Below, piece after piece: positions 20,290 through 33,910 of a stretch of 64,000 bases of DNA; the first letter of the stretch is position 1, and every line of letters begins with the position of its first letter. The notes beneath the pieces were generated by a model that saw only the letters and a list, made by a program, of their open reading frames with translations, did no database searches and was not told where the DNA came from. Made by a program: the position numbers and the translations under genes. Where the stretch lies: positions 1 through 64,000 of the IMG/VR virus record IMGVR_UViG_3300044712_000815. One strand, given 5' to 3'. The stretch is from a virus.

Positions 20290-20313
20290 GTTCATTGACA
20301 TATTGAATTTATA
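20290..20313 (+). promoter_or_regulatory. boxA-like antitermination site GTTCATTGACATATTGAATTTATA (repeated at ~21454)
   Basis: Identical 24-mer precedes two tRNA sub-clusters; related GTTCWTTG at 20167, 31974 and 43411. Confidence 0.55.
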
Positions 20314-20396
20314 TAGTAGTGGAGGAATTGGTTACCTCGCCTGATTTGGGATCAGGAGATCGAAAGTGTATGTGGGTTCGAGTCCCACCTATTATA
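20313..20396 (+). tRNA. tRNA-Pro(TGG), extended variable region
   Basis: CCTGA-TTTGGGA-TCAGG; GTGGG-TTCGAGT-CCCAC. Confidence 0.75.
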
Positions 20397-20455
20397 CAAA
20401 ATATAAAAAAGTTCGTTTTTATTTTTTAATATATAACTAAAATAGAAACGAACTT

Positions 20456-21331
20456 ATGAATAAAAATAAAAATTGTTGGAGAAAAATTGATACATATGCC
20501 AAAAAATTAAAGGCGATTATATTATTAGGTGGTAAATGTGAACATTGTGGTGAAACTAATTTTTTTAAATTAGAATTTCATCATTTAGAATCAGAAGAAA
20601 AAGAATATAATATATCACGAATTAGAAATTATAGATGGTCAATTATTGAATCAGAAATAAAAAAATGTAAATTATTATGTCGAAATTGTCATAATGAAGA
20701 ACACAATGGATATAAAGATAAAAGAAGATTTATTAATAAAAATACATTTTTAGATTTTAAAAAAACAATTAAATGTGAAAAATGTGAATATGATAAATAT
20801 ATTGGATCATTAGATTTTCATCATATTAATCCAAAAATTAAAGATTTAACATTAAGTCAACTTAGTTTAAAATATAACAACATTCAAGAATTGACTGAAA
20901 ATATTAAAATGGAATTAGATAAATGTGTGGTATTGTGTAAAAATTGTCATTCATTAGAACATTCAGATATTGAATTTTTCGAAAAATATAAAGATATAAT
21001 TATTGAAAAATCTAAAAATCTAAAAGAAGTTCAATCAAAAATTGATAGATATGAAGTAAAAAAATTGTATGATGGTGGAATGAAACAAATTGATATTGCT
21101 AAAAAATTAAATGCATCTAAAAGTACGATTAGTGATATAATTAAAATGTCAAAAGATATAATAAGTAAAGAAAAAAGAATAAATAAAGATGATGTTAAAA
21201 AATTGTATGAATGTGGAATGAAACAAATTGATATTGCTAAAAAATTAAATACCAATAGTAGTACAATTTGTGAAATTATAAAAAAATTAAAATTAAATGG
21301 TCTTGTAGTAGCGGAGTCTTCTAAACTCTAG
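20456..21331 (+). CDS. HNH homing endonuclease (two HNH modules + two HTH repeats) inside tRNA array
   Basis: CEHCG..LEFHH..LCRNCH and CEKC..LDFHH..LCKNCH; MKQIDIAKKLN x2; 3' end overlaps the next tRNA-like gene. Confidence 0.85.
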   Translation: MNKNKNCWRKIDTYAKKLKAIILLGGKCEHCGETNFFKLEFHHLESEEKEYNISRIRNYRWSIIESEIKKCKLLCRNCHNEEHNGYKDKRRFINKNTFLDFKKTIKCEKCEYDKYIGSLDFHHINPKIKDLTLSQLSLKYNNIQELTENIKMELDKCVVLCKNCHSLEHSDIEFFEKYKDIIIEKSKNLKEVQSKIDRYEVKKLYDGGMKQIDIAKKLNASKSTISDIIKMSKDIISKEKRINKDDVKKLYECGMKQIDIAKKLNTNSSTICEIIKKLKLNGLVVAESSKL

Positions 21332-21378
21332 TCGTATAATGGACACTGTAAATGTGGGTTCGAGTCCCACCTGGATCA
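21299..21378 (+). tRNA. D-armless tRNA-Arg(TCT)-like RNA
   Basis: GGTCTTG/CTGGATC acceptor, 7-nt connector, GGAGT-CTTCTAA-ACTCT, 24-nt variable region, GTGGG-TTCGAGT-CCCAC. Confidence 0.7.
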
Positions 21379-21476
21379 CAAAAATGAATGTTCACTTGTT
21401 CACGAAAAATAACCGTTCACGAAACGTGAACAAATGAATAAAATGAATAAAGAGTTCATTGACATATTGAATTTAT

Positions 21477-21549
21477 AGGGGATGGGACTGCTTGGTGTGG
21501 TCGCTGTACATACGGTACAGAGAGATGGCTTCGAAAACCATATCTTCTA
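21477..21549 (+). tRNA. Degenerate tRNA-like gene (TAC anticodon, A33, G3:U70 acceptor)
   Basis: AGGGGAT/ATCTTCT; GACT/GGTC D-stem; CTGTA-CATACGG-TACAG; imperfect T-stem. Confidence 0.5.
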
Positions 21550-21554
21550 CTATT

Positions 21555-21626
21555 GGGGGTTTAGTATAATGGCTATTACATCTGGTTTGCAACCACAAGA
21601 TACGAGTTCGATTCTCGTAACCTCCA
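21555..21626 (+). tRNA. tRNA-Ala(TGC)
   Basis: GGGGGTT/AACCTCC with G3:U70; one anticodon-stem mismatch. Confidence 0.8.
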
Positions 21627-21630
21627 CAAT

Positions 21631-21704
21631 GGGGCTGTAGTTCAGTTGGCTAGAACATCTGATTTGCATTCAGAAGATCGAGGGTTCGAGACCCTTCAGC
21701 TCCA
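21631..21704 (+). tRNA. tRNA-Ala(TGC)
   Basis: Canonical cloverleaf, G3:U70. Confidence 0.9.
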
Positions 21705-21709
21705 CAAAT

Positions 21710-21782
<73 letters not shown>

Positions 21783-21789
21783 CGGATAA

Positions 21790-21850
21790 AGAATATTAAC
21801 AGCAAATTAAAAACAATCAAATTTACATTTTGACTAAAAGAAATATTCTG
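21790..21850 (+). ncRNA. CAGCAA-scaffold RNA copy A, displaying a Val(TAC) anticodon stem-loop
   Basis: AGAATATT..CAGCAA..TCAAA-TTTACAT-TTTGA..AATATTCTG. Confidence 0.6.
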
Positions 21851-21868
21851 TTCTAAATTAAAATCTAA

Positions 21869-21938
21869 AGATTACATACAGCAAATTAAAAAAAGAAACA
21901 AACTTGTAAATTGTAAAATCTGAAAAAAATGTATTCTG
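21869..21938 (+). ncRNA. CAGCAA-scaffold RNA copy B, displaying a Thr(TGT) anticodon stem-loop
   Basis: AGATTACAT..CAGCAA..ACAAA-CTTGTAA-ATTGT..ATGTATTCTG. Confidence 0.6.
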
Positions 21939-21947
21939 TGGTTTTAT

Positions 21948-22019
21948 GCAGGTATAGCACAACGGTTAGTGTAAGAGATTTCCAATCTTTTGATGTGGGT
22001 TCGATTCCCACTACCTGCT
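21948..22019 (+). tRNA. tRNA-Gly(TCC)
   Basis: Canonical cloverleaf. Confidence 0.9.
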
Positions 22020-22084
22020 CAAACATAAGGCGTTGGTTTACGTGGTTAGTCTTTATCCATGTGCTTATGAAGAAAAAGACAAAT

Positions 22085-22170
22085 GCGAGTGTTGATCTAG
22101 TGGTCGATGACACCTGACTTCCAATCAGGTAAGCGAAAGCGCACCGTGGGTTCGAATCCCATCACTCGCT
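22085..22170 (+). tRNA. tRNA-Gly(TCC), long variable arm
   Basis: CCTGA-CTTCCAA-TCAGG; variable arm GC-GAAA-GC. Confidence 0.8.
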
Positions 22171-22214
22171 CGTGGGTTTAGACTTTTTAGACTTCGTATG
22201 GAAAAAAGTTAATT

Positions 22215-22287
22215 GCAAGATGAAGCTTAATTGGATGAAGTGCCTGATTACCAATCAGGAGAAGGGGTTCGACTCCCACATCTTGCT
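22215..22287 (+). tRNA. tRNA-Gly(ACC), weak T-stem
   Basis: GCAAGAT/ATCTTGC; CCTGA-TTACCAA-TCAGG. Confidence 0.65.
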
Positions 22288-22288
22288 C

Positions 22289-22362
22289 GTAAGTGTATAT
22301 CAATTGGTAGATAGTCACGTTGCCAACGTGAAGGTTTGCGGGTTCGAGTCCCGTTACTTACT
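22289..22362 (+). tRNA. tRNA-Gly(GCC)
   Basis: TCACG-TTGCCAA-CGTGA. Confidence 0.85.
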
Positions 22363-22368
22363 CAATAA

Positions 22369-22443
22369 GGGTGATTAGCTCAGTTGGTTCAGAGCGTTTG
22401 GTTTACACCCAAAGGGTCGGGGGTTCGACTCCCTCATCACCCA
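22369..22443 (+). tRNA. tRNA-Val(TAC)
   Basis: Canonical cloverleaf. Confidence 0.9.
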
Positions 22444-22449
22444 CCTTAT

Positions 22450-22535
22450 GTTCCCATAGTGTAATTGGATAAACATCTCACTCTTACAAAGTGAAGACGA
22501 GAAGTATAATACAGGTTCGAGTCCTGTTGGGAACA
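22450..22535 (+). tRNA. tRNA-Val(TAC), extended variable region
   Basis: TCACT-CTTACAA-AGTGA; 16-nt variable region. Confidence 0.8.
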
Positions 22536-22541
22536 CAATTT

Positions 22542-22629
22542 GCCGATGTCGCATAGTGGACTATTGCGCTTGCCTTGTAAGCAAGATACTGAAAGGTTTT
22601 AATCGGGGGTTCGAATCCCTCCATCGGCT
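22542..22629 (+). tRNA. tRNA-Thr(TGT), long variable arm
   Basis: CTTGC-CTTGTAA-GCAAG; ACT-GAAA-GGT arm. Confidence 0.8.
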
Positions 22630-22657
22630 CAACAATATATTATATATAAAGGAAAAA

Positions 22658-23275
22658 ATGAATATCGAAGAACAAAAGAATTTATGGAATAATCCAAATA
22701 ATTGGTCTAATGATGGTAATGAATGGTCAACATATTTTGGGACAACTGAAAATTTATGGAATATATTATATCCTAAATTTAAAAATTATATAATGGGTGA
22801 TGTATTGGAAATTGCACCAGGATTTGGCAGAATGACAGAATATTTATTAAGAAACACGAATGATTTAAGTATAATAGATTTGAATGATATATGTATCGAA
22901 AAATGTAAACAAAGATTTGATACTAGTATTAAGAATTATGTTGTTAATGATGGTAAAACATTGAATTTTAGTGATAATTATTTCGATTTTATTTTTTCAT
23001 ATGATTCGTTTGTGCATATGACAGAAGATGTTATAGAAAGTTACATATCGGAAATACACAGAACATTAAAAAATAATGGTTATGCTTTTATTCATCATTC
23101 ATTTTTTATGGGTGGTAGTGTTGATAAAGCAACGGAAAATATTGGGGGTAGATCAAATATGACACCAAGTCTTTTCAAAAATATAGTTGAAAAATATAAT
23201 ATGACAATTATATCACAAGAAGATTTTAGGGTTTCTGAACAAATAAATGATGCGATTTCAATTTTTAGAAAATAA
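22658..23275 (+). CDS. Class I SAM-dependent methyltransferase
   Basis: VLEIAPGFGR, FDFIFSYDSFVH, LKNNG; start moved to MNIEEQ because the track start lies inside a tRNA. Confidence 0.85.
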   Translation: MNIEEQKNLWNNPNNWSNDGNEWSTYFGTTENLWNILYPKFKNYIMGDVLEIAPGFGRMTEYLLRNTNDLSIIDLNDICIEKCKQRFDTSIKNYVVNDGKTLNFSDNYFDFIFSYDSFVHMTEDVIESYISEIHRTLKNNGYAFIHHSFFMGGSVDKATENIGGRSNMTPSLFKNIVEKYNMTIISQEDFRVSEQINDAISIFRK

Positions 23276-23279
23276 TTTT

Positions 23280-23352
23280 GCCGCAATAACTTTAATGGTA
23301 GAGTGCCACACTTGTAATGTGGAAGTTGGGGGTTCGAGTCCCTCTTGCGGCT
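23280..23352 (+). tRNA. tRNA-Thr(TGT)
   Basis: Canonical cloverleaf. Confidence 0.9.
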
Positions 23353-23356
23353 CTAA

Positions 23357-23429
23357 CGGGGTGTAATTCAGTTGGTAGAATGCGTGGTTTGGGTCCACGA
23401 TGCCGTCAGTTCGAGTCTGGCCACCCCGA
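23357..23429 (+). tRNA. tRNA-Pro(TGG)
   Basis: Canonical cloverleaf. Confidence 0.9.
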
Positions 23430-23448
23430 CAATTTTGGTTTTTAGATG

Positions 23449-24498
23449 TTAATTCAAATTATATTTTGCAAGTGTGACATCCCAAAGATCACTATTGATA
23501 AATTTTATAAGGTTTTTATTAATATTGTTTTCGATAGTTTTGTCACATTTCATACCGATACCATAATATTGTCGATCAAAAGTACTATTAGATAGGTGTA
23601 TTTTTTTAAGATTATTTTTCTTTATATAATATTTAAGAATTGGTGTATCATATACAAAAGTTTCCAAATTTTTACATTCTAAATCATTTAATGCTTCTTC
23701 GATACTATCATATCCAATGAATTTGATATTTTTTGAATTTAAATAATCCACTGCTGTGGTATTTAGAAATGATCCAACTTTTGTTTTATTTAATTGATTG
23801 ATATCTTCTAAGCCATTATCTAACCTATTTACAGTAATAGCAGATGAAATATTACCAATAAAAACTGAAGTGATTCCTAAAGAAATAAGCATCCATAAAA
23901 TTACTATAAGTTTACCTAGTTTAGTTTTTGCTGATTTATCACCAAATCCAACTGTGCTCATAACGACAGTGGCGAAGTAGAACGCATCATAAATACCAAT
24001 AGATACACTTTTATCAAAATCTGGATTATATTTATGTTCAACTAACCATATTAATATTCCAACTATAAAAATAATAAGTAATAAGGATAACACATATTTT
24101 AAAAAAGTAAGTGAAAAAATATTTGAAACTATTGACCAAAATGCAGATTTGGATAAATTTGAAGCTATACTAAGATCTGTTATATAAAAAGGTTGGGAAA
24201 AATTAATTTTATCCATTCGGGTATCACTAATTGTGATTGATCCAAGAATAATATCAAATTTATTTTTGCTAAGTTCATCAACCATTCCATTTATTGAACC
24301 ATCATAAATTTCATATACGTATTCGATATTTGATTCTTTGGCAATTCTTTCCCAAATATCAACGATAAGACCAGTATAGCTACCATTAACATCCATCATT
24401 ACGAATGGTGGCGAATCATACAATCCAACTTTAAGTGGTTCAGATTTTGTAGTTATTCCAATTAGAATAAGTGTGATAATTAGAATTAATTTTTTCAT
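23449..24498 (-). CDS. GluR0-like ligand-gated K+ channel (split solute-binding domain around a 2TM pore)
   Basis: Signal peptide, PPFVM..TGL..D, ITISDTR..FSQPFY, TM-STVGFGD-TM, then S2 lobe; start MKKLILII behind a TATATTTG promoter. Confidence 0.85.
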   Translation of the reverse strand: MKKLILIITLILIGITTKSEPLKVGLYDSPPFVMMDVNGSYTGLIVDIWERIAKESNIEYVYEIYDGSINGMVDELSKNKFDIILGSITISDTRMDKINFSQPFYITDLSIASNLSKSAFWSIVSNIFSLTFLKYVLSLLLIIFIVGILIWLVEHKYNPDFDKSVSIGIYDAFYFATVVMSTVGFGDKSAKTKLGKLIVILWMLISLGITSVFIGNISSAITVNRLDNGLEDINQLNKTKVGSFLNTTAVDYLNSKNIKFIGYDSIEEALNDLECKNLETFVYDTPILKYYIKKNNLKKIHLSNSTFDRQYYGIGMKCDKTIENNINKNLIKFINSDLWDVTLAKYNLN

Positions 24499-24571
24499 AT
24501 GTTTTTTTTTGTACAAATATAACAATTTTTTTGAAATAATTGGATAATATATAAAAAAAATTATTACATTT

Positions 24572-24645
24572 GCCGTCATAGCTTTAATTGGTAGAGTACC
24601 TGATTCGTAATCAGGATGTTGTGGGTTCGAGTCCCACTGACGGCT
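24572..24645 (+). tRNA. tRNA-Thr(CGT)
   Basis: Canonical cloverleaf. Confidence 0.9.
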
Positions 24646-24714
24646 CAATCAGATAGAATATTAGATTTGGTTATTTTTTGAAGTTCGAATATTTATATAT
24701 ACAAATAAAACTGT

Positions 24715-25587
24715 ATGTGTAAATGTAAAATATGTGGTAAAGAATGCAAAAATGTTAATGGAATAGCAAAACATCTAAACATACATAATATAGAATTATT
24801 AAAATATTATGTTAAATATGAAGATTTTGAAATACCAAAATGTATAATATGTGGAAAAGATGCAAAATTAAATAAAGGATTAAAATTTAGAAGAACTTGT
24901 AGTGATATATCTTGTGGTAACAAAACACATAAAATAATACATTCAACTGAAACAAAAATATTACTATCAGAAAAACGTAAAAAATATTTAAAATTAAATC
25001 CAGATAAACATCCTTGGAAACAAAAAGATAAACAATTATCTGTTCCATGTGAATTATTTAAAACAAAATTAAAAAATAATAATATCAATTATATTGAAGA
25101 ATATTCACCATTAGAAGATAGATTTTTTAGTATAGATATTGCGTTTCCTGATAAAAAAATAGGAATTGAAATTAATGGAAATCAACATTATGAAACAAAT
25201 GGAAAATTGAAAAAATATTATCAAGAAAGAAAAAATATAATAGAAAAAGGTGGTTGGAAATTGTATGATATTTATTATACTAAAGTTTATGATGATGATT
25301 TTTGTAATATCGTAATAAATAATTTAAAAAATAATAATTTAGGCTTAATAAATTATGAATTTATTAAATATACAAAAAATACAAATAAATGTGTAGATTG
25401 TAGTTGTGATATAAGTAATGGTGCTAAACGATGTAAAAAATGTAATATTTTAAATAGAATTAAAAATCGACCTAACATAGAACAATTAAAATTAGATATA
25501 ATAGAATTGGGATATTGTGGAACAGGAAGAAAATATAATGTTAGTGATAATGCGATAAGAAAATGGATAAATAGTCCCGTAGCTTAA
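24715..25587 (+). CDS. Putative homing endonuclease (zinc fingers, NUMOD3-like, PD-(D/E)xK/DUF559-like, HTH)
   Basis: IDIAFPDKKIGIEINGNQH; HSTETK..LS; 3' end overlaps tRNA-Arg. Confidence 0.75.
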   Translation: MCKCKICGKECKNVNGIAKHLNIHNIELLKYYVKYEDFEIPKCIICGKDAKLNKGLKFRRTCSDISCGNKTHKIIHSTETKILLSEKRKKYLKLNPDKHPWKQKDKQLSVPCELFKTKLKNNNINYIEEYSPLEDRFFSIDIAFPDKKIGIEINGNQHYETNGKLKKYYQERKNIIEKGGWKLYDIYYTKVYDDDFCNIVINNLKNNNLGLINYEFIKYTKNTNKCVDCSCDISNGAKRCKKCNILNRIKNRPNIEQLKLDIIELGYCGTGRKYNVSDNAIRKWINSPVA

Positions 25588-25645
25588 ACGGAAAAGCCAC
25601 AGATTTCTAATCTGTTGAGTATGAGTTCGAATCTCATCGGGATTA
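25573..25645 (+). tRNA. tRNA-Arg(TCT)
   Basis: Canonical cloverleaf ACAGA-TTTCTAA-TCTGT. Confidence 0.9.
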
Positions 25646-25648
25646 CTT

Positions 25649-25720
25649 GCGAGTGTAGCTCAGGGGTAGAGCATAACCTTGCCAAGGTTAGGGTCGTGGG
25701 TTCAATTCCCTTCACTCGCT
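25649..25720 (+). tRNA. tRNA-Gly(GCC)
   Basis: Canonical cloverleaf. Confidence 0.85.
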
Positions 25721-25965
25721 CAATGTGTAATTCATTAATTTGAATGTTGGAAAAAAGTAGTGGTACTGGATTCTTTTTTGGGTAAGGTAAAAGATGAAGT
25801 AATTATCATTAATAACTTACAAACACAATCGCAAGTGTTTTCGGTTAATATCCGACACATTTAAATCACATATGATCTAACTATAAAGAAACATAACTTA
25901 TGGACATTGTTAGGTTAATGGTTGCAGTAGATAAGAATAATTATGTTTCTTATGTGGTTTTATTT

Positions 25966-27043: not shown

Positions 27044-27439
27044 ATGAAAAAAACGTTTAAATCATTTTTAAATGAAGAATCTGAAATAGATATGTATTAT
27101 CAATCTGATGATAAAATATGGAATGAATTTTTACAGCAATTGAAAATTTTAGCATTTCGATCAAATTATCAATTAGAAACGGAATTGGGATTTAATCCAA
27201 AAATAGTTATTGTATCAAAAACTATTGGTAGGGGATTTTGGTTTATTATATATCAATCTAGACAACATTTTTTAGAAGATATACCTTGGTTTTCTTCTAA
27301 TTTTTCAATAACAAATGTAAAGAGTTTTTTTGAATCTGAAATTAAACACATTAGTGGTATTAAGGGTAAAGATTTTACGATTGAAGAATTACTTCCGAAA
27401 TTTATTTTAACTAAGATGGATACAGAAAGAACATATTAA
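27044..27439 (+). CDS. Hypothetical protein, CTS-like N-terminus
   Basis: MKKTFKSFLNEE. Confidence 0.5.
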   Translation: MKKTFKSFLNEESEIDMYYQSDDKIWNEFLQQLKILAFRSNYQLETELGFNPKIVIVSKTIGRGFWFIIYQSRQHFLEDIPWFSSNFSITNVKSFFESEIKHISGIKGKDFTIEELLPKFILTKMDTERTY

Positions 27440-28201: not shown

Positions 28202-29722
28202 ATGAAAAAATTAAAAACATATGAAAATTTTTCAGAAGAATACAGATTGAACGAAAGTTTATTATCTATGGCATTGAATAAGATAGTAGAATTTTTTAAG
28301 AAAAAATTTTTAAATCACGCATGGTTATATTATAATCTTTTTTTGAAAAAAATAGGTAAAATGCCTAAATGGTTTGATATTTATGATCCATCACATGAAG
28401 ATGGTGTAGGTGTTCCATCAAAAGAAGAAGTCAAGTTAGCAATTAGTGAATCATATACAATTAATGGGTTTACTATTGAAAATATAAATGAAGATGTTGT
28501 GCAATTAAAATCTGATACTGAAGAAAATATTGATGCAGCAACTTTGAAACAAACAATATTGGATGTATATAATAAAAATAAAAGAAGGGTTGAAAAAGGT
28601 AAAGAAAGAAAAATGAATGATGCATTATTTATTTGGGGTGCTCCAGGTATAGGGAAAACATCAATAATTAAACAAGTTGTAAAAGAATTAGATATAAAAT
28701 TGGCAACTTGGCATCTAGCATCAACTGACCCAACTGATGTTAGGGGTATACCAACAATTCAAAATATGGAAGGAAGTAGTGACCCAAAAGATGAAAGAAC
28801 TGTAACTAAATTACCTGCTGCATTTCCAACATCAAATTGTGACAATGGAAAGGGTGGTATTTTGTTTTTTGATGAATTAAACCAAGCAAAACAAATGATT
28901 TTAGCAGCAGCACTTCCAATTATATTGGAAGGTGAAATTGGTGAATATGTTTTACCATCAATGTGGATAGTTATTGCTGCAGGAAATAGAGAAGAAGACT
29001 TAGCAGGTGGAGGTACAAGATTTGAAGCACCATTATCAAATAGGTTTAAGCATTTAAATTATGCACCTGAATTATTAACCGACTTTATTCCTTATGCTAT
29101 AACTAACGATGAAATGAATCCAGATGTTATTAGCTTTTTAACATTTAAACAAGAATATTTTCATAAATTAAATACCGATTCGGATAAAGTTACTAAAGCT
29201 TGGCCTAGTCCACGTAGTTGGGAATTAGCATCAAGCGATGAATATTTTAAAAGAGGTGATGATTGGGATAGTCGTCCATTATCTAGAGATACAATGATGC
29301 AAATTTATGCACCAAGAGTTGGTAGAGAAGCGGCAACAGCATTTTTAGCATATTTAGATTTAAAAGAATTTTTCAATGAAAATGATGTTAAAGATGTATT
29401 TACTAAAGGTGGCAAAGCTAGACCATTACCTAAAGATTTAGCACAATGTTTTGCTGCATCTGGGTCTATTGCAGGTTACAAAAAAGGTGAAAAATTAACA
29501 GAAAAAGAATTACAGAACTTTTTAGATTATACCGAAGTTCAAATGAATTCAGGAAATAAAGGATTGGAAACTGCAACACCATTGCTTGCTTGGATGAAAA
29601 CTATGCATCCAGATATTGCAGCCGATAATAAACTTAAAGAGATGTATATGGAATTTATAAAAAAATGGCATATTAAAATGGAAGATCTTGAAGATGTTGA
29701 TCCATTAAATAAAATTAAATAA
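28202..29722 (+). CDS. MoxR-like AAA+ ATPase
   Basis: WGAPGIGKT, ILFFDELN, AAGNR, LSNRF, SPRSW. Confidence 0.9.
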   Translation: MKKLKTYENFSEEYRLNESLLSMALNKIVEFFKKKFLNHAWLYYNLFLKKIGKMPKWFDIYDPSHEDGVGVPSKEEVKLAISESYTINGFTIENINEDVVQLKSDTEENIDAATLKQTILDVYNKNKRRVEKGKERKMNDALFIWGAPGIGKTSIIKQVVKELDIKLATWHLASTDPTDVRGIPTIQNMEGSSDPKDERTVTKLPAAFPTSNCDNGKGGILFFDELNQAKQMILAAALPIILEGEIGEYVLPSMWIVIAAGNREEDLAGGGTRFEAPLSNRFKHLNYAPELLTDFIPYAITNDEMNPDVISFLTFKQEYFHKLNTDSDKVTKAWPSPRSWELASSDEYFKRGDDWDSRPLSRDTMMQIYAPRVGREAATAFLAYLDLKEFFNENDVKDVFTKGGKARPLPKDLAQCFAASGSIAGYKKGEKLTEKELQNFLDYTEVQMNSGNKGLETATPLLAWMKTMHPDIAADNKLKEMYMEFIKKWHIKMEDLEDVDPLNKIK

Positions 29723-31117
29723 ATGATAAAAAAATATAATAATTTTATAAACGAATCTGCAAAAGATATAAGTGCTGAAAAAAAAATGAAAAGGGCATTT
29801 ATGCAGATCCAATTAAATTTTGGATTTTTTGCAGAATTGATGTTTAATTTAGCTATAGTAGAATCTAGTCCAAAGATGGGGGTTAAAACTATGGCAACCG
29901 ATGGTGTTAATATTGCATATAATCCCGAATTTGTTAATAAACTAACTGATAATGGAACAATATTTATAATAATACACGAAATTATGCATAATGCAAATTT
30001 ACACTTTGCTAGACAAGCTTTCAGGGAACATAAATTGTGGAATAAAGCATGTGATTATGCTATAAATCTTTTAATTGCGGATTTAGCTAAAGAATCTGGT
30101 AAATTCGAAAAACCAACTGAAAACGGTGAATTTATAGGATTGTTGGATGAAAGATTTCGTAATATGAATGCTGAACAAATATATGATTTACTTGAAAAAG
30201 AAAAATTAGAAAATAAAGATAAAGGTAAAGGTCAACCTAGTAAAGGTCAAGGTAAAGGTCAACCAGGTGATGGTAATGAAGGTGATGAAGATGAAGGTGA
30301 TGAAGATGAAGGTGATGGTAGTGTAGGTGATTTTGGTGAAGATATTAGAGAACCAGGATCATTAACAGGAAAAGGTGAAACTATATATGAAGGTAGTGAT
30401 ATTATAAAAGAAGCAACCACCAAAAAAGAATTAGCAGATATTTGGGATAGAATTAAAATTGAAGCTTCAACAAAAAATATGGGATCGGGTTCAGCATCTT
30501 TTGATAGATGGGTTAGAAATATAAATAAACCAAAAATAAATTGGAGAAATGAATTAAAAAAATTTATTACAAATGTATTTAATGAATTAGATTTTGGTTT
30601 TTATAATAAAAGGTTTATTGGTGGTGGTCAATATTTGCCAGCTGCTAAAGATATAGACACATCATCATATCAAAATGTTGTTATAGCAATTGACACATCG
30701 GGTTCTATATCAGATGATACTTTAGCTAAATTTGCAACAGAAATGATGTCGCTTTTTAAAAAGTATTTAATTTTAAAGGTTATTGTTATTTGGTGTGATG
30801 CTAATATTCCAAAAAATGGCGTACAACAATTTGATATGGCAGATAAAACATTTGATTTAAAGAAACTTAAACCTGTTGGTGGTGGTGGAACAAGTTTCAA
30901 GCCACCATTTGAATGGATCAAGAAAAATCTACTTGCAAAACGTATAGAACCAGCATTTGTAATATATTTTACTGATGCTGCTGGGGAAGCACCTGGAATT
31001 AATGAATTTGATATTAGAAAATATTCAAATAGGGTTCTTTGGGTAATTACTGATACAGAAAGCGCACCACATATCAAATTTGGTAAAAAAATATATATTG
31101 ATAAAATAGTTAAATAA
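29723..31117 (+). CDS. DUF2201 metallopeptidase + vWA domain protein
   Basis: TMATDG, HEIMH, WN.ACDYAIN, acidic linker, IDTSGS MIDAS, GGGGTSF, YFTD. Confidence 0.9.
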   Translation: MIKKYNNFINESAKDISAEKKMKRAFMQIQLNFGFFAELMFNLAIVESSPKMGVKTMATDGVNIAYNPEFVNKLTDNGTIFIIIHEIMHNANLHFARQAFREHKLWNKACDYAINLLIADLAKESGKFEKPTENGEFIGLLDERFRNMNAEQIYDLLEKEKLENKDKGKGQPSKGQGKGQPGDGNEGDEDEGDEDEGDGSVGDFGEDIREPGSLTGKGETIYEGSDIIKEATTKKELADIWDRIKIEASTKNMGSGSASFDRWVRNINKPKINWRNELKKFITNVFNELDFGFYNKRFIGGGQYLPAAKDIDTSSYQNVVIAIDTSGSISDDTLAKFATEMMSLFKKYLILKVIVIWCDANIPKNGVQQFDMADKTFDLKKLKPVGGGGTSFKPPFEWIKKNLLAKRIEPAFVIYFTDAAGEAPGINEFDIRKYSNRVLWVITDTESAPHIKFGKKIYIDKIVK

Positions 31118-31824: not shown

Positions 31825-31997
31825 AAAATTATTAAACTTTTTTTTTAATTTATACTACAAATATTATTCTTTAAAAAATGGAAAAAAATGACATTTTTTA
31901 AAGAATATATAAAAATTGAAAAATATTAAATTTTTTTACAGTAATTGGTAATTAAAATTTAATATTTGTCAAACGTTCATTGAAGAAAAAATTATAA

Positions 31998-32046
31998 AGA
32001 ATACATTCAGCAACATAAAAGTTCGAGAAACAAAAATCGTATTCTG
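31998..32046 (+). ncRNA. CAGCAA-scaffold RNA copy C
   Basis: AGAATAC-ATT-CAGCAA...GTATTCTG. Confidence 0.6.
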
Positions 32047-32070
32047 TTAATTTAAAATATTTACTCATAA

Positions 32071-32274
32071 AGAATACATACTGCAAATCATAAACTAAAT
32101 ATGATAAACAGTGACTATGATGATGGTAGTGTTTTGAAACTTTTTTAGTTTTTCACTAAGTTACATCATCAATTAAAACCTATCCCAAGGGGATATGGAG
32201 AAGGTCTTAACTAAACAAAAAAATTAAAAAGAAAGTTTACCGTTCGGTTTTTGAGAAAAACCGATTGTATTCTG
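32071..32274 (+). ncRNA. CAGCAA-scaffold RNA copy D with ~180-nt multi-hairpin insert
   Basis: AGAATACA-TA-CTGCAA...TGTATTCTG; internal GATGATG/CATCATC, TATCCC/GGGATA and TCGGTTTT/AAAACCGA stems. Confidence 0.55.
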
Positions 32275-32293
32275 TTGAGGATTTTGATTTTTA

Positions 32294-32363
32294 GCTTAGA
32301 TTAGGATGTTGGCTTGGAAGCAGCCATTCATTTAAAGAGTACGTAACAGTTCACTAGTCAAGC
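32294..32363 (+). ncRNA. Stand-alone mimic of 23S rRNA helices 43-44 (uL11-binding / GTPase-associated centre)
   Basis: AGGATGTTGGCTTGGAAGCAGCCATTCATTTAAAGAGTACGTAACAGTTCACTAG matches the recalled 23S 1051-1108 consensus; closed by GCTT-A-GATTAG/CTAGTC-AAGC. Confidence 0.85.
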
Positions 32364-32450: not shown

Positions 32451-32460
32451 ATTAATTCCT

Positions 32461-32494
32461 AGATTACTAACAGCAAAAATAAAAATGTAATCTG
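32461..32494 (+). ncRNA. CAGCAA-scaffold copy E (minimal) in 5' UTR of DUF2828 gene
   Basis: AGATTAC-TAA-CAGCAA-N10-GTAATCTG. Confidence 0.6.
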
Positions 32495-32515
32495 GACAAA
32501 AAATTAGGAGGTATT

Positions 32516-33910
32516 ATGAACTCAAATGCAAAATTAGTTAATGTAACTAGACAAAAAGACAGTTATACCAAAAATGGTATGGTAACAAATTCAACTTCGT
32601 TGAATTCAAATGTGGATATGTTTTTCTTAGCGGGTGCTTCGAGAAATATCTCAGAAAAAGATATTGAATTTCTTTTTCAAAAATCAATAGTGGAAAACCC
32701 TTTAGTGGCACTAAAACTTATGTTTTGGGCAAGAGACCCAAGAGGTGGTGCGGGTGAAAGAAGATTTTTCAGGATTTGTTCTAAATTCTTGAATAAGAAC
32801 TATTTATCATATCTTGAAAAAAATATCAATTTAATACCTGAATATGGTCGTTGGGATGATATATTTGAACTTGATAGTGATGTTATATTACCATTAATCA
32901 AAGATGGTTTAGATAAAGAAAATGGTTTGCTTGCAAAATGGTTACCACGTCAAGGAGAATTTGCGAATAAAGTTCGTAAATTTATGAAACTTAGTCCAAA
33001 GGATTATCGTAAACTTATTGTTGGTTTGTCAAATACAATCGAACAAAAAATGTGTGCAAAAGAATGGGATGCGATCACATATAAATCAGTGCCATCATGC
33101 GCACTGAATAAATATAGAAAGGCATTCTATAAAAATGATGCAAATCGTTTTACAGAATATATTTCATTGGTTAATGAAGGTAAAGAAGAAATTAAAGCAG
33201 GTGTTTTATTTCCACATCAATTATATCAAGCATATAAAAAAGGTGAAGATAAAAATGCTGTAGAAGCACAATGGAAAAATTTACCAGATTTTATGGTTGA
33301 TTCAGAAGAAAGAATTATACCAGTATGTGATGTGTCAGGTTCTATGACTAGTAATAATGGTCTTCCAATGTCAGTATCAGTGTCATTGGGTTTATATATT
33401 TCAGAAAGAAATAGAAGTATATTTAAAGATGCATTTATAACATTTTCAGCATCACCAAAAATGCAATATTTAAAAGGTTCTTTTTATGAAAGAATAAGAC
33501 AATTGGAAACTGCTGAATGGGGTATGAATACTAATTTGGAAGCTGTATATAGTTTAATATTAACTAAAGCTATTCAAAATAGATTAACCGAAGATGATAT
33601 GCCAACAAAAATTCTTATAATTTCGGATATGGAATTTGATAGTTGCGCTCAAAATAATTCAGATTCTGCATTTTCGATGATAAATAGAATGTATTCTGAT
33701 GCTGGCTATAAAATGCCACAGATCGTTTTTTGGAATGTAAATGGTAGATTGGGTAATGTTCCAACAAATGCACAAACAAAAAATGTTGGTTTGGTTTCAG
33801 GATTCAGTCCAGCAATATTGAAATCAATATTACAAGGTAGTATTGATACACCAGAAAGCTTAATGTTGCGAACAATAAATAGTGAAAGGTACGAACCTAT
33901 TACAATATAA
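32516..33910 (+). CDS. DUF2828 family protein (TROVE/Ro60-like helical domain + vWA)
   Basis: TKNG, ARDPRGGAGER, PEYGRWDD, AKWLPR, DVSGSM, ISDMEFD, VFWNV, VSGFSP. Confidence 0.85.
   Translation: MNSNAKLVNVTRQKDSYTKNGMVTNSTSLNSNVDMFFLAGASRNISEKDIEFLFQKSIVENPLVALKLMFWARDPRGGAGERRFFRICSKFLNKNYLSYLEKNINLIPEYGRWDDIFELDSDVILPLIKDGLDKENGLLAKWLPRQGEFANKVRKFMKLSPKDYRKLIVGLSNTIEQKMCAKEWDAITYKSVPSCALNKYRKAFYKNDANRFTEYISLVNEGKEEIKAGVLFPHQLYQAYKKGEDKNAVEAQWKNLPDFMVDSEERIIPVCDVSGSMTSNNGLPMSVSVSLGLYISERNRSIFKDAFITFSASPKMQYLKGSFYERIRQLETAEWGMNTNLEAVYSLILTKAIQNRLTEDDMPTKILIISDMEFDSCAQNNSDSAFSMINRMYSDAGYKMPQIVFWNVNGRLGNVPTNAQTKNVGLVSGFSPAILKSILQGSIDTPESLMLRTINSERYEPITI

What the first reader, a model, noticed from the sequence alone, without database searches (positions are those of the whole stretch)
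21790..21938. Isolated anticodon stem-loops displayed on the scaffold inside the tRNA array
Seen: copy A carries TCAAA-TT TAC AT-TTTGA (5-bp stem, 7-nt loop, U33, A37, Val UAC; the real phage tRNA-Val loop is TT TAC AC). Copy B carries ACAAA-CT TGT AA-ATTGT, the same loop as both tRNA-Thr(TGT) genes. Both anticodons belong to the array and to the leader control set. There is no acceptor, D or T arm, so these cannot decode. Inference: sacrificial decoys or inhibitors of anticodon nucleases (PrrC/RloC/PARIS-type), co-induced with the replacement tRNAs.
Basis: partly seen in the sequence, partly recalled or inferred. Interest (0 to 1): 0.85.

Follow-up and report, generated by a model that had tools for sequence, protein, structure and literature searches.

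The report
Anticodon-loop mimics on phage Ro60-partner RNAs
Two ~65-nt RNAs wedged between tRNA genes of a very large AT-rich phage belong to a widespread, apparently undescribed small-RNA family that travels with a phage Ro60-like ring protein, and their variable middle part is shaped like a tRNA anticodon hairpin, so they probably act as tRNA look-alike baits.

Summary
The spacer 21784-21947 carries two copies (21788-21852, 21867-21940) of one scaffold. Copy A displays a 5-bp/7-nt hairpin with loop UUUACAU. Copy B displays CUUGUAA on only 4 bp plus an A.A mismatch, not 5 bp.

The scaffold is AAG, a covarying stem, unpaired CAGCAAwUyAAAA, a variable module, the stem's 3' arm, then CUGU. It defines a large viral RNA family: 70 distinct model matches in the viral contigs fetched, 63 of them with the full scaffold. 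The window holds five members. Three lie just upstream of a DUF2828/DUF7788 gene (32516-33910) whose predicted fold is Ro60.

All 11 fetched loci with this gene also carry the RNA, usually adjacent to it. The RNA has the build of Dictyostelium Class I RNAs but scores below Rfam threshold.

Among 53 small members, anticodon-loop geometry (at least 4 bp, 7-nt loop, U33, R37) occurs 14 times against 2.0 in shuffles. An Aeromonas phage member carries the exact 15-nt core of tRNA-Lys(UUU).

So the "displayed anticodon hairpin" reading is supported. The decoy function is plausible but untested. The hairpins are thermodynamically weak, and copy A's stem matches no tRNA found.

This scan noted the family before on other DNA in at least 57 genomes, including anticodon mimics in one phage. 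I found no paper describing it.

The parts
21788..21852 (+). Copy A of the CAGCAA-handle RNA: AAAG start, outer stem 21790-21797 with 21842-21849, handle 21800-21813, anticodon-like hairpin 21817-21833 (loop UUUACAU, Val UAC), CUGUU end
   Evidence: Model R1 54.8 bits. Sequence. RF01414 full-length match at 17.8 bits.
21867..21940 (+). Copy B: outer stem 21869-21877 with 21929-21937 (one T.T), handle 21879-21892, hairpin 21898-21914 (4 bp plus A.A, loop CUUGUAA, Thr UGU), CUGUG end
   Evidence: R1 52.9 bits. The orthologue L003:6409-6479 has the same hairpin and a perfect 9-bp outer stem.
21710..21783 (+). Upstream tRNA-Thr(GGU), ending 5 nt before copy A
   Evidence: ARAGORN and Rfam
21948..22020 (+). 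Downstream tRNA-Gly(UCC), starting 8 nt after copy B. Its 5' processing would release copy B.
   Evidence: The processing step is inferred.
31996..32048 (+). Copy C: stem 31998-32004 with 32039-32045, handle CAGCAA at 32008-32013, short module that is not anticodon-like
   Evidence: R1 45.3 bits. RF01414 23.8 bits.
32069..32276 (+). Large member D: stem 32071-32077 with 32267-32273, handle variant CUGCAA at 32081-32086, insert of about 180 nt
   Evidence: Sequence. Its 5' end gives a partial R1 match at 21.5 bits. The pairing of the two arms was read directly from the sequence.
32459..32496 (+). Minimal member E: stem 32461-32467 with 32487-32493, handle at 32472-32477, no module, 20 nt upstream of the Ro60-like gene
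   Evidence: R1 23.9 bits. RF01414 21.2 bits.
32516..33910 (+). DUF2828/DUF7788 gene, a Ro60 (TROVE plus vWA) fold: the presumed protein partner
   Evidence: Pfam. AlphaFold2 pLDDT 90. The top 13 Foldseek hits are all Ro60/TROVE structures.

Best explanation
Copies A and B are two of five members, in this phage, of a widespread small-RNA family. The family's build is AAG, a covarying terminal stem, single-stranded CAGCAAwUyAAAA, a variable module, an A-rich linker, the 3' stem arm and CUGU, about 60 nt in all.

Steps that are inferred:
- They are transcribed with the tRNA array and cut out by the tRNA-processing enzymes, because they sit 5-8 nt from flanking tRNAs.
- The stem plus CAGCAA handle is the binding site for the phage's Ro60-like ring protein (gene 32516-33910), as the Y-RNA stem is for Ro60.

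Steps that are shown at family level:
- The variable module is the cargo. In A, B and about a quarter of small members it is a 4-5-bp, 7-nt-loop hairpin with U33 and A37, that is, an anticodon stem-loop mimic.
- In other members the cargo is a circularly permuted tRNA-like module.

Most likely mechanism (inferred, about 35-40%): the ribonucleoprotein presents the mimic as a bait or competitive substrate for a host factor that reads anticodon loops. The leading candidates are tRNA-cleaving defence nucleases, so the mimics would protect or supplement the phage's tRNA supply.
For: Family and outer stem:
- 43 of 116 pattern hits in viral contigs have the reverse complement of the first 7 or more stem bases within 75 nt; my own estimate of the chance count is about 0.3.
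- On 24 sequences the stem is 99.4% paired, with 27 double-change cells against 7.1 in shuffles, and pairing collapses when the partner is slid.
- Model R1 finds 70 distinct matches, 63 with the full scaffold, and five in the window.

Protein link:
- All 11 fetched loci that encode a DUF2828 homologue have R1 hits, mostly within 30-300 nt and on the same strand.
- The same holds in named phages Aeromonas LAh_6, Listeria cka15, Campylobacter CP8, a 735-kb megaphage and Bas63.
- The protein model (pLDDT 90) matches Ro60 structures over its full length, including Thermus phage phiLo Ro60.
- It is 37% identical to Bas63 gp130. A preprint reports gp130 as Ro60-like and as a counter to the Ppl defence.

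Anticodon mimicry:
- Enrichment against shuffles, with a mirror-pattern control.
- Loop positions 32 and 38, which were not used for selection, are C in 12/19 and A in 17/19, like real tRNA loops of the same loci.
- The LAh_6 module shares the 15-mer TTGACTTTTAATCAA with E. coli tRNA-Lys. In MG1655 that 15-mer occurs six times: five inside the annotated tRNA-Lys genes at 780-782 kb and once at 2,521,280, which I take from memory to be lysV.
- The commonest module anticodons (Thr UGU, Asn GUU, with Lys UUU also present) are the reported targets of the PARIS nuclease AriB (PMC12409363).

tRNA-array setting: 31 of 58 members lie within 100 nt of a same-strand tRNA.

Mimicry theme: a 60-nt copy of a 23S rRNA segment sits in the same RNA island.
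Against: - The hairpins are weak: copy A -1.6 kcal/mol, copy B predicted open, and the spacer folds no better than shuffles.
- Copy B has an A.A at the loop-closing position.
In this window only loop and geometry mimic a tRNA, not the stem.
- A at position 32 occurs in 5 of 19 module loops but in 1 of 146 real tRNA loops.
- Match of the module anticodon to local tRNAs is not significant (6/19 vs 2.9).
- Family members are related by descent, so shuffle tests overstate independence.
- A and B lie 10.6 kb from the Ro60-like gene.
- Binding of this RNA family to the protein has never been shown.
- R1 found nothing next to the gene in four of ten named phages tested.
Confidence: 0.6

Rival explanations
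1. The RNAs are Ro60-like partner RNAs, but the 7-nt U-turn loop is a generic presentation loop. It would serve docking on the ring protein, tethering an effector such as PNPase, or a fast kissing contact with another RNA. On this view the resemblance to anticodon loops is a by-product of U-turn geometry in A/U-rich sequence, not mimicry of particular tRNAs.
For: - Copy A's stem matches no tRNA found.
- A32 is common in the modules but rare in tRNAs.
- Module anticodons do not track local tRNA sets.
- Many members carry loops of 4-6 or 8-11 nt, or no module at all.
- Y RNAs are known to tether PNPase, including in phage phiLo (PMC12135203).
Against: - C32 and A38 are enriched although they were not used for selection.
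- The mirror pattern is not enriched.
- The LAh_6 module is a 15/17-nt copy of the tRNA-Lys anticodon arm, which geometry alone does not explain.
- Other members carry whole permuted tRNA-like modules, so tRNA mimicry is a family habit.
Confidence: 0.22
2. The modules recruit, rather than block, an anticodon-loop enzyme. Candidates are a tRNA repair ligase or kinase, or a modification enzyme that reads U36/A36-A37. Alternatively they act as a damage sensor: cleavage of the displayed loop opens the RNA gate on the Ro60-like ring and switches on repair or decay.
For: - RNA repair genes (RtcB-type ligase, RNA ligases, CCA-adding enzyme) lie next to the gene in Listeria, Aeromonas and Pectobacterium phages.
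- Bacterial Ro60 sits in an RNA-repair operon with tRNA-like YrlA (established knowledge: Chen et al. 2014, cited; Sim and Wolin 2018).
- 17 of 19 module loops have U or A at position 36, and 18 of 19 have A at 37.
Against: - The A/U bias at position 36 is what A/U-rich sequence gives anyway.
- No repair gene was identified in the part of this window I annotated.
- There are no functional data.
Confidence: 0.12
3. The repeats are non-functional or DNA-level features. They could be decayed tRNA remnants, a duplicated spacer, promoter or terminator elements, or processing signals of the tRNA operon.
For: - Weak sigma-70-like matches overlap copy A (TTGACT-18-TAAATT).
- Fold energies are low.
- The location is inside a tRNA array interrupted by a homing endonuclease gene.
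Against: - Promoter-like sites are no more frequent than in shuffles (53 vs 44.9).
- The handle and the covarying stem are conserved across dozens of unrelated viral contigs of differing G+C.
- Some members are followed by their own terminators.
- The link to one protein family is not expected of spacer debris.
Confidence: 0.04

Closest known systems
Ro60 (Rsr) with Y RNAs, especially bacterial and phage YrlA (Chen et al. 2014, RNA 20:1715; Sim and Wolin 2018; phage phiLo Ro60 with Yrl1/Yrl2, PMC12135203)
   Same: A small RNA whose 5' and 3' ends form a stem. It is encoded next to a Ro60-fold ring protein, carries a variable effector module, mimics tRNA, and occurs in phages near tRNA and RNA-repair genes.
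   Different: - No Rfam Y_RNA or YrlA match.
- The handle is an unpaired CAGCAA next to a plain covarying stem, not the bulged Ro-binding helix or the CGAA motif.
- The RNAs are about 60 nt, not 100-200.
- The module here mimics the anticodon arm, the one part of a tRNA that, from my memory of Chen et al. 2014, YrlA lacks.
- The protein is the DUF2828 branch, 10-17% identical to solved Ro60s.
Dictyostelium Class I RNAs (Rfam RF01414; Kjellin et al. 2021, PMC7919456)
   Same: AAG start, short covarying terminal stem, conserved unpaired motif containing ACAGCAA directly after the 5' stem arm, variable remainder, CUGU end, about 60 nt, genes in clusters. All four small window copies give full-length RF01414 matches.
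   Different: - Scores of 17.8-23.8 bits are below the gathering score of 41.5.
- The CCUU part of the 11-nt motif is absent.
- There is no DUSE promoter, and the genes are embedded in bacterial-type tRNA operons of phages.
- Class I RNAs are reported as unique to Dictyostelia and bind an RRM protein. Whether the likeness is common descent or convergence is open.
Phage counter-measures to tRNA-cleaving defences: nuclease-resistant phage tRNAs against PARIS/AriB (PMC11464382, PMC12409363), and T4 tRNA repair against PrrC (established knowledge)
   Same: Encoded in the phage tRNA cluster. The same anticodons are involved (Lys UUU, Thr UGU, Asn GUU). The presumed purpose is to keep translation going under attack on anticodon loops.
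   Different: Those are complete decoding tRNAs or repair enzymes. Here there is only the anticodon arm on a non-tRNA scaffold, so it cannot decode. Any decoy action is inferred, not shown.
Anticodon-arm mimics in mRNA that bind tRNA-recognising proteins, such as the E. coli thrS operator (established knowledge, recalled from memory)
   Same: An isolated hairpin with an anticodon-like loop serves as a protein-binding mimic of a tRNA.
   Different: Those are cis-acting translational operators for one synthetase. Here the hairpins are trans-acting small RNAs with many different anticodons. Ser-type anticodons are frequent, and seryl-tRNA synthetase does not read the anticodon.

Membership tests
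CAGCAA-handle viral small RNAs (defined here by model R1; not in Rfam) | AAG at the 5' end and CUG(U) at the 3' end flanking a covarying terminal stem of 6-9 bp | tested here: met
   Copies A and B. Family covariation. R1 scores 54.8 and 52.9 bits.
CAGCAA-handle viral small RNAs (defined here by model R1; not in Rfam) | Unpaired CAGCAAwUyAAAA starting 2-3 nt after the 5' stem arm | tested here: met
   21800-21813 and 21879-21892 are identical 14-mers.
CAGCAA-handle viral small RNAs (defined here by model R1; not in Rfam) | A DUF2828/Ro60-fold gene in the same genome, often adjacent | tested here: met
   The gene lies at 32516-33910, with three further copies 20-520 nt upstream. A and B are 10.6 kb away. 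11 of 11 loci with the gene have the RNA.
Dictyostelium Class I RNA (RF01414) | Score at or above the Rfam gathering threshold (41.5 bits) | tested here: not met
   17.8 and 20.5 bits for A and B; 23.8 and 21.2 for C and E.
Dictyostelium Class I RNA (RF01414) | AAG start, 6-bp covarying stem, conserved motif with CAGCAA next to the 5' arm, CUGU end, about 60 nt | tested here: met
   Compared with the description in PMC7919456 and with the Rfam consensus alignment.
Dictyostelium Class I RNA (RF01414) | DUSE promoter about 60 nt upstream, in a dictyostelid genome | tested here: not met
   The copies lie 5-14 nt from tRNA genes or from each other in a phage record that also has a tmRNA.
Y RNA / YrlA | Match to the Rfam Y_RNA or YrlA models (conserved Ro-binding helix) | tested here: not met
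   No such match at gathering or at E <= 10.
Y RNA / YrlA | tRNA-like domain with T arm, D arm and acceptor-like stem | tested here: not met
   Absent from A and B. Present in other family members, for example L029:10105-10234.
Y RNA / YrlA | Physical binding to the Ro60 orthologue | not testable with these tools
   Only genomic linkage is shown.
tRNA | Cloverleaf with acceptor, D and T arms | tested here: not met
   ARAGORN and Rfam tRNA give no call in 21784-21947.
Anticodon stem-loop geometry | 5-bp stem, 7-nt loop, Y32, U33, purine 37 | tested here: met
   Copy A meets all of these. Copy B has 4 bp plus A.A and otherwise meets them. Enriched in the family.
Anticodon stem-loop geometry | Hairpin predicted stable on its own | tested here: not met
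   -1.6 and 0 kcal/mol.
Anticodon stem-loop geometry | The whole 17-nt arm is identical to that of a real tRNA | tested here: inconclusive
A relative in Aeromonas phage LAh_6 matches tRNA-Lys at 15 of 17 positions.

The most novel reading that the evidence does not exclude
Phage (and, by earlier unchecked notes of this scan, giant-virus) Ro60-like proteins use one universal RNA handle to display interchangeable mimics of translation RNAs. The mimics seen are anticodon arms of specific tRNAs, permuted tRNA bodies, and possibly the neighbouring 23S rRNA fragment. Together they would form a modular bait or sensor platform against host toxins that cut tRNA or rRNA. The unexplained Class I RNAs of social amoebae would then be eukaryotic members of the same RNA family.
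Probability: 0.3. Interest if true: 0.9.

Novelty: new variant of a known kind. Interest (0 to 1): 0.72.

Why it matters
Ro60/Y-RNA particles are known from animals and bacteria, but what their RNA modules do is largely unsolved.

This work points to a much larger viral branch. Homologues of the protein occur in 710 named phage records. The RNA partner has a simple, searchable handle, and its cargo can be read directly from sequence as an anticodon arm.

That makes a long-standing question testable: which proteins do Y-like RNAs tether or block? Laboratory phages such as Bas63, Listeria A511/P100-type phages and Aeromonas LAh_6 could be tested against defined tRNA nucleases such as PrrC, RloC and PARIS.

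It would add an RNA-decoy layer to the phage-host contest over tRNAs. It also offers a first lead on the function and origin of Dictyostelium Class I RNAs.

Tried and rejected
- Megablast of the tRNA region against named phages gave only a 49-nt tRNA-like hit.
- An exact search for the 3' half of the neighbouring tRNA-Thr in viral contigs found nothing.
- Four of ten first pattern hits (L005, L007, L011, L012) were chance matches in coding sequence. About 70 of 116 hits of the looser pattern lacked the 3' stem arm.
- Rfam at gathering threshold finds nothing in the spacer.
- phmmer of the DUF2828 protein against PDB sequences gave nothing useful. Only the fold comparison worked.
- Sequencing runs: one DNA run (possibly the source sample) holds the stretch, and relatives occur in wetland, rhizosphere and wastewater runs. 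The contigs laid on 21700-22030 were almost all generic tRNA matches. One DNA contig is identical over 21791-21963. No RNA evidence was obtained.
- Exact search for copy A's 17-nt hairpin in prokaryote genomes: 120 matches, none in a tRNA gene, so neither the host nor a model tRNA was identified.
- I could not search Aeromonas genomes for the Lys arm, because handles from other collections have no relatives. E. coli served as proxy.
- I did not run a pair-count test of the inner hairpin, because picking hairpins by their pairing would make it circular.
- No model R1 hits were found beside the gene in Vibrio phi-pp2, Bacillus PBC2, Pectobacterium CBB or Mycobacterium phage Lewan. R1 is built from A/T-rich members and may miss others.

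Full report
**What is there**

The window is the first 64 kb of a 159-kb viral record with 25% G+C. CheckV rates it 22% complete. It has a tmRNA and a tRNA array at 20313-25721, interrupted by an HNH endonuclease, a methyltransferase and a ligand-gated channel gene.

The 164-nt spacer between tRNA-Thr(GGU) (21710-21783) and tRNA-Gly(UCC) (21948-22020) holds two copies of one scaffold. The pattern CAGCAAATTAAAAA-N15-45-TATTCTGT occurs twice in the window and never in 100 shuffles.

- Copy A (21788-21852): 8-bp outer stem, unpaired 14-nt handle, and the hairpin TCAAA/TTTACAT/TTTGA.
- Copy B (21867-21940): 9-position outer stem with one T.T, the same handle, and ACAA(A)/CTTGTAA/(A)TTGT.

The loop comparisons with the phage's own tRNA-Val and tRNA-Thr(UGU) are correct. 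Neither hairpin is thermodynamically convincing: -1.6 and 0 kcal/mol, and the whole spacer has z = 0.29.

**The scaffold is a large RNA family**

A pattern search in viral contigs found the same handle just downstream of tRNA genes in unrelated contigs. The outer stem changes by compensatory substitutions, for example AGAATAC/GTATTCT, AGAATGG/CCATTCT, AGAATCC/GGATTCT and AGATTAC/GTAATCT.

Of 116 hits to the 5' half alone, 43 had the reverse complement of the first 7 or more stem bases within 75 nt. I estimate that chance would give about 0.3. On 24 non-redundant members the 7-bp stem is 99.4% paired, with 27 double-change cells against 7.1 in shuffles, and pairing drops to 35-51% when the partner is slid.

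A covariance model (R1) finds 70 distinct matches in the loci fetched, 63 of which show the full scaffold. In this genome it finds A and B plus copy C (31996-32048), the 5' end of the large member D and a 38-nt minimal member E (32459-32496). One further weak match at 27122-27191 was not followed up. Read directly from the sequence, D spans 32069-32276 and has the same stem arms around an insert of about 180 nt.

Half of the family members (31 of 58) lie within 100 nt of a same-strand tRNA gene, typically 2-12 nt away. Others have their own terminator. This fixes the strand and suggests release by tRNA processing, which is inferred.

**Protein partner**

Copies C, D and E fill the non-coding stretch just upstream of gene 32516-33910, which carries Pfam domains DUF2828 and DUF7788. 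Its AlphaFold2 model (pLDDT 90, pTM 0.90) matches Ro60/TROVE structures over its full length. The top 13 Foldseek hits include Xenopus, human and Deinococcus Ro60 and Thermus phage phiLo Ro60.

In the loci that had been fetched by the RNA pattern alone, all 11 that encode a homologue of this protein have R1 hits. Most are directly adjacent and on the same strand.

Homologues occur in 710 named phage records. R1 finds the RNA beside the gene in six of ten named phages tested:
- Aeromonas LAh_6, with an array of eight copies just upstream of the gene plus one more about 4 kb away;
- Listeria cka15;
- Campylobacter CP8;
- a 735-kb uncultured megaphage, the closest relative of the window's protein at 54% identity;
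- Bas63;
- Staphylococcus S-CoN_Ph13, weakly.

Bas63 gp130 is 37% identical to the window's protein. A preprint reports it as Ro60-like and as a counter to the Ppl defence, and its authors guessed that some of the 'tRNA genes' downstream are Y RNAs. In several of these phages the gene sits beside tRNA arrays and RNA ligase, RtcB or CCA-adding enzyme genes.

**Relation to known RNA families**

No Y_RNA or YrlA match was obtained. The best Rfam family for all four small window copies is RF01414, the Dictyostelium Class I RNA. All four matches are full-length, at 17.8-23.8 bits against a gathering score of 41.5.

The published definition of Class I RNAs fits the viral family point by point: AAG start, 6-bp covarying stem, conserved unpaired motif with CAGCAA next to the 5' arm, variable remainder, CUGU end, about 60 nt, clustered genes. 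That paper reports them as unique to Dictyostelia (PMC7919456).

The viral RNAs fail the score threshold and lack the DUSE promoter, so I do not file them as Class I RNAs. The likeness of build is nonetheless striking. Papers on phage Ro60 describe other RNAs: phiLo Yrl1/Yrl2 with a CGAA motif. Full-text searches for the handle, or for anticodon decoys on such RNAs, found nothing.

**Is the module an anticodon-arm mimic?**

For 53 distinct small members I took the sequence between the handle and the 3' stem arm and compared it with 2000 shuffles.

| Feature | Observed | Shuffles |
|---|---|---|
| Stem of at least 4 bp with a 7-nt loop | 30 | 10.7 +/- 2.7 |
| Same, plus U at loop position 2 and purine at position 6 | 14 | 2.0 +/- 1.4 |
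| Full Y32-U33...R37-A38 pattern | 9 | 0.38 |
| Mirror-image pattern (control) | 4 | 2.0 (not significant) |

No shuffle reached the observed value in the first three rows. Loop sizes 3, 5 and 8 are not enriched.

Positions 32 and 38, which were not used for selection, are C in 12/19 and A in 17/19. This resembles the 146 real tRNA loops of the same loci, but A32 occurs in 5/19 modules against 1/146 tRNAs.

The displayed triplets vary. Counting the two Thr modules with a mismatched stem, they are Thr UGU 6, Ser GGA 3, Asn GUU 3, Ser UGA 2, and one each of Ser GCU, Cys GCA, Tyr GUA, Lys UUU, Pro UGG and Val UAC. The same loop also occurs on different, compensating stems.

The orthologous position in a related contig (L003) keeps copy B's Thr hairpin but has a Ser GGA hairpin where this window has Val UAC.

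The strongest single case is Aeromonas phage LAh_6. One of its array units carries TTTGA/CTTTTAA/TCAAA, which shares 15 consecutive bases with the anticodon arm of E. coli tRNA-Lys(UUU). In MG1655 that 15-mer occurs six times: five inside the annotated tRNA-Lys genes at 780-782 kb, and once at 2,521,280, which I take from memory to be lysV.

Lys UUU, Thr UGU and Asn GUU are the reported targets of the PARIS nuclease AriB (PMC12409363). The modules here do not carry AriB's U36-A41 site, so I do not name a specific nuclease.

**Limits**

- Copy A's exact 17-mer occurs at least 120 times in prokaryote genomes and never in a tRNA gene. In this window only loop and geometry mimic a tRNA.
- The module anticodon is found among tRNAs of the same locus in 6 of 19 cases against 2.9 expected.
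- No expression data could be obtained.
- Family members share ancestry, so the shuffle statistics overstate independence.
- Binding to the Ro60-like protein rests on genomic linkage alone.

**Verdict**

Anticodon-arm mimicry as a selected property of the module: about 70%. Bait or decoy for an anticodon-reading host factor, most likely a tRNA nuclease: about 35-40%. The rivals are generic U-turn presentation, recruitment of repair or modification enzymes, or a cleavage sensor.

Earlier notes of this scan describe the same protein-RNA pairing in at least 57 other genomes and anticodon mimics in one other phage. I reached the family, the Class I likeness and the DUF2828 link before reading those notes. 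The Bas63 lead came from them, and I checked it in the preprint.

Noticed in passing
window 32303-32362: A 60-nt block 87% identical to a segment of E. coli 23S rRNA (seven places per genome, all annotated 23S). It sits alone in the intergenic RNA island between member D and a terminator, just upstream of the Ro60-like gene.
   Followed up: partly
window 20313-20397, 22085-22171, 22450-22536, 22542-22630: Four tRNAs of 85-89 nt with a long variable arm (type II build) carry anticodons for Pro UGG, Gly UCC, Val UAC and Thr UGU. From memory, only Leu, Ser and Tyr tRNAs have this build in bacteria. Each has a normal-length twin with the same anticodon in the array.
   Followed up: no
window 20313-25721: The array holds only tRNAs for Ala, Thr, Gly, Val, Pro and Arg in a genome of 25% G+C. 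Rfam also calls a tRNA at 23280-23352 (loop CTTGTAA, Thr UGU) that ARAGORN missed.
   Followed up: no
window 23449-24648 (-): A gene inside the tRNA array matches glutamate-receptor-type ligand-gated ion channel domains (SBP_bac_3, Lig_chan, Ion_trans_2).
   Followed up: no
window 21798-21802 with 21848-21852 (copy A): The conserved ACAG of the handle is complementary to the conserved 3' CUGU. RNAfold prefers this 5-bp alternative to the covarying outer stem when copy A is folded alone. It may be a conformational switch or a coincidence of two protein-contact motifs.
   Followed up: no
window 20293-20310, 20960-20977, 21457-21474: The repeated motif CATTGACATATTGAATTT (two exact copies and one 89% copy) precedes tRNA groups. 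It is probably the array's promoter.
   Followed up: no
window 28202-31117: A MoxR-like AAA ATPase and a DUF2201 metallopeptidase/vWA-like protein lie immediately upstream of the lysozyme gene and the RNA island. No homologue of either was found in the other fetched loci.
   Followed up: partly
L029:10105-10234, L110:6629-6715, L098:10140-10279: Family members whose module contains T-arm-like sequence. In L029 a circularly permuted tRNA-like body (T arm, acceptor, D arm) is joined to the handle through its anticodon stem, as in YrlA.
   Followed up: partly
L140:4982-5954 (Aeromonas phage LAh_6): Eight handle RNAs in a row just upstream of the DUF2828 gene. One is the Lys UUU arm mimic and another has loop CUCAUAA (Met CAU) on a 3-bp stem. 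An RNA ligase 2 gene lies 4 kb downstream.
   Followed up: partly
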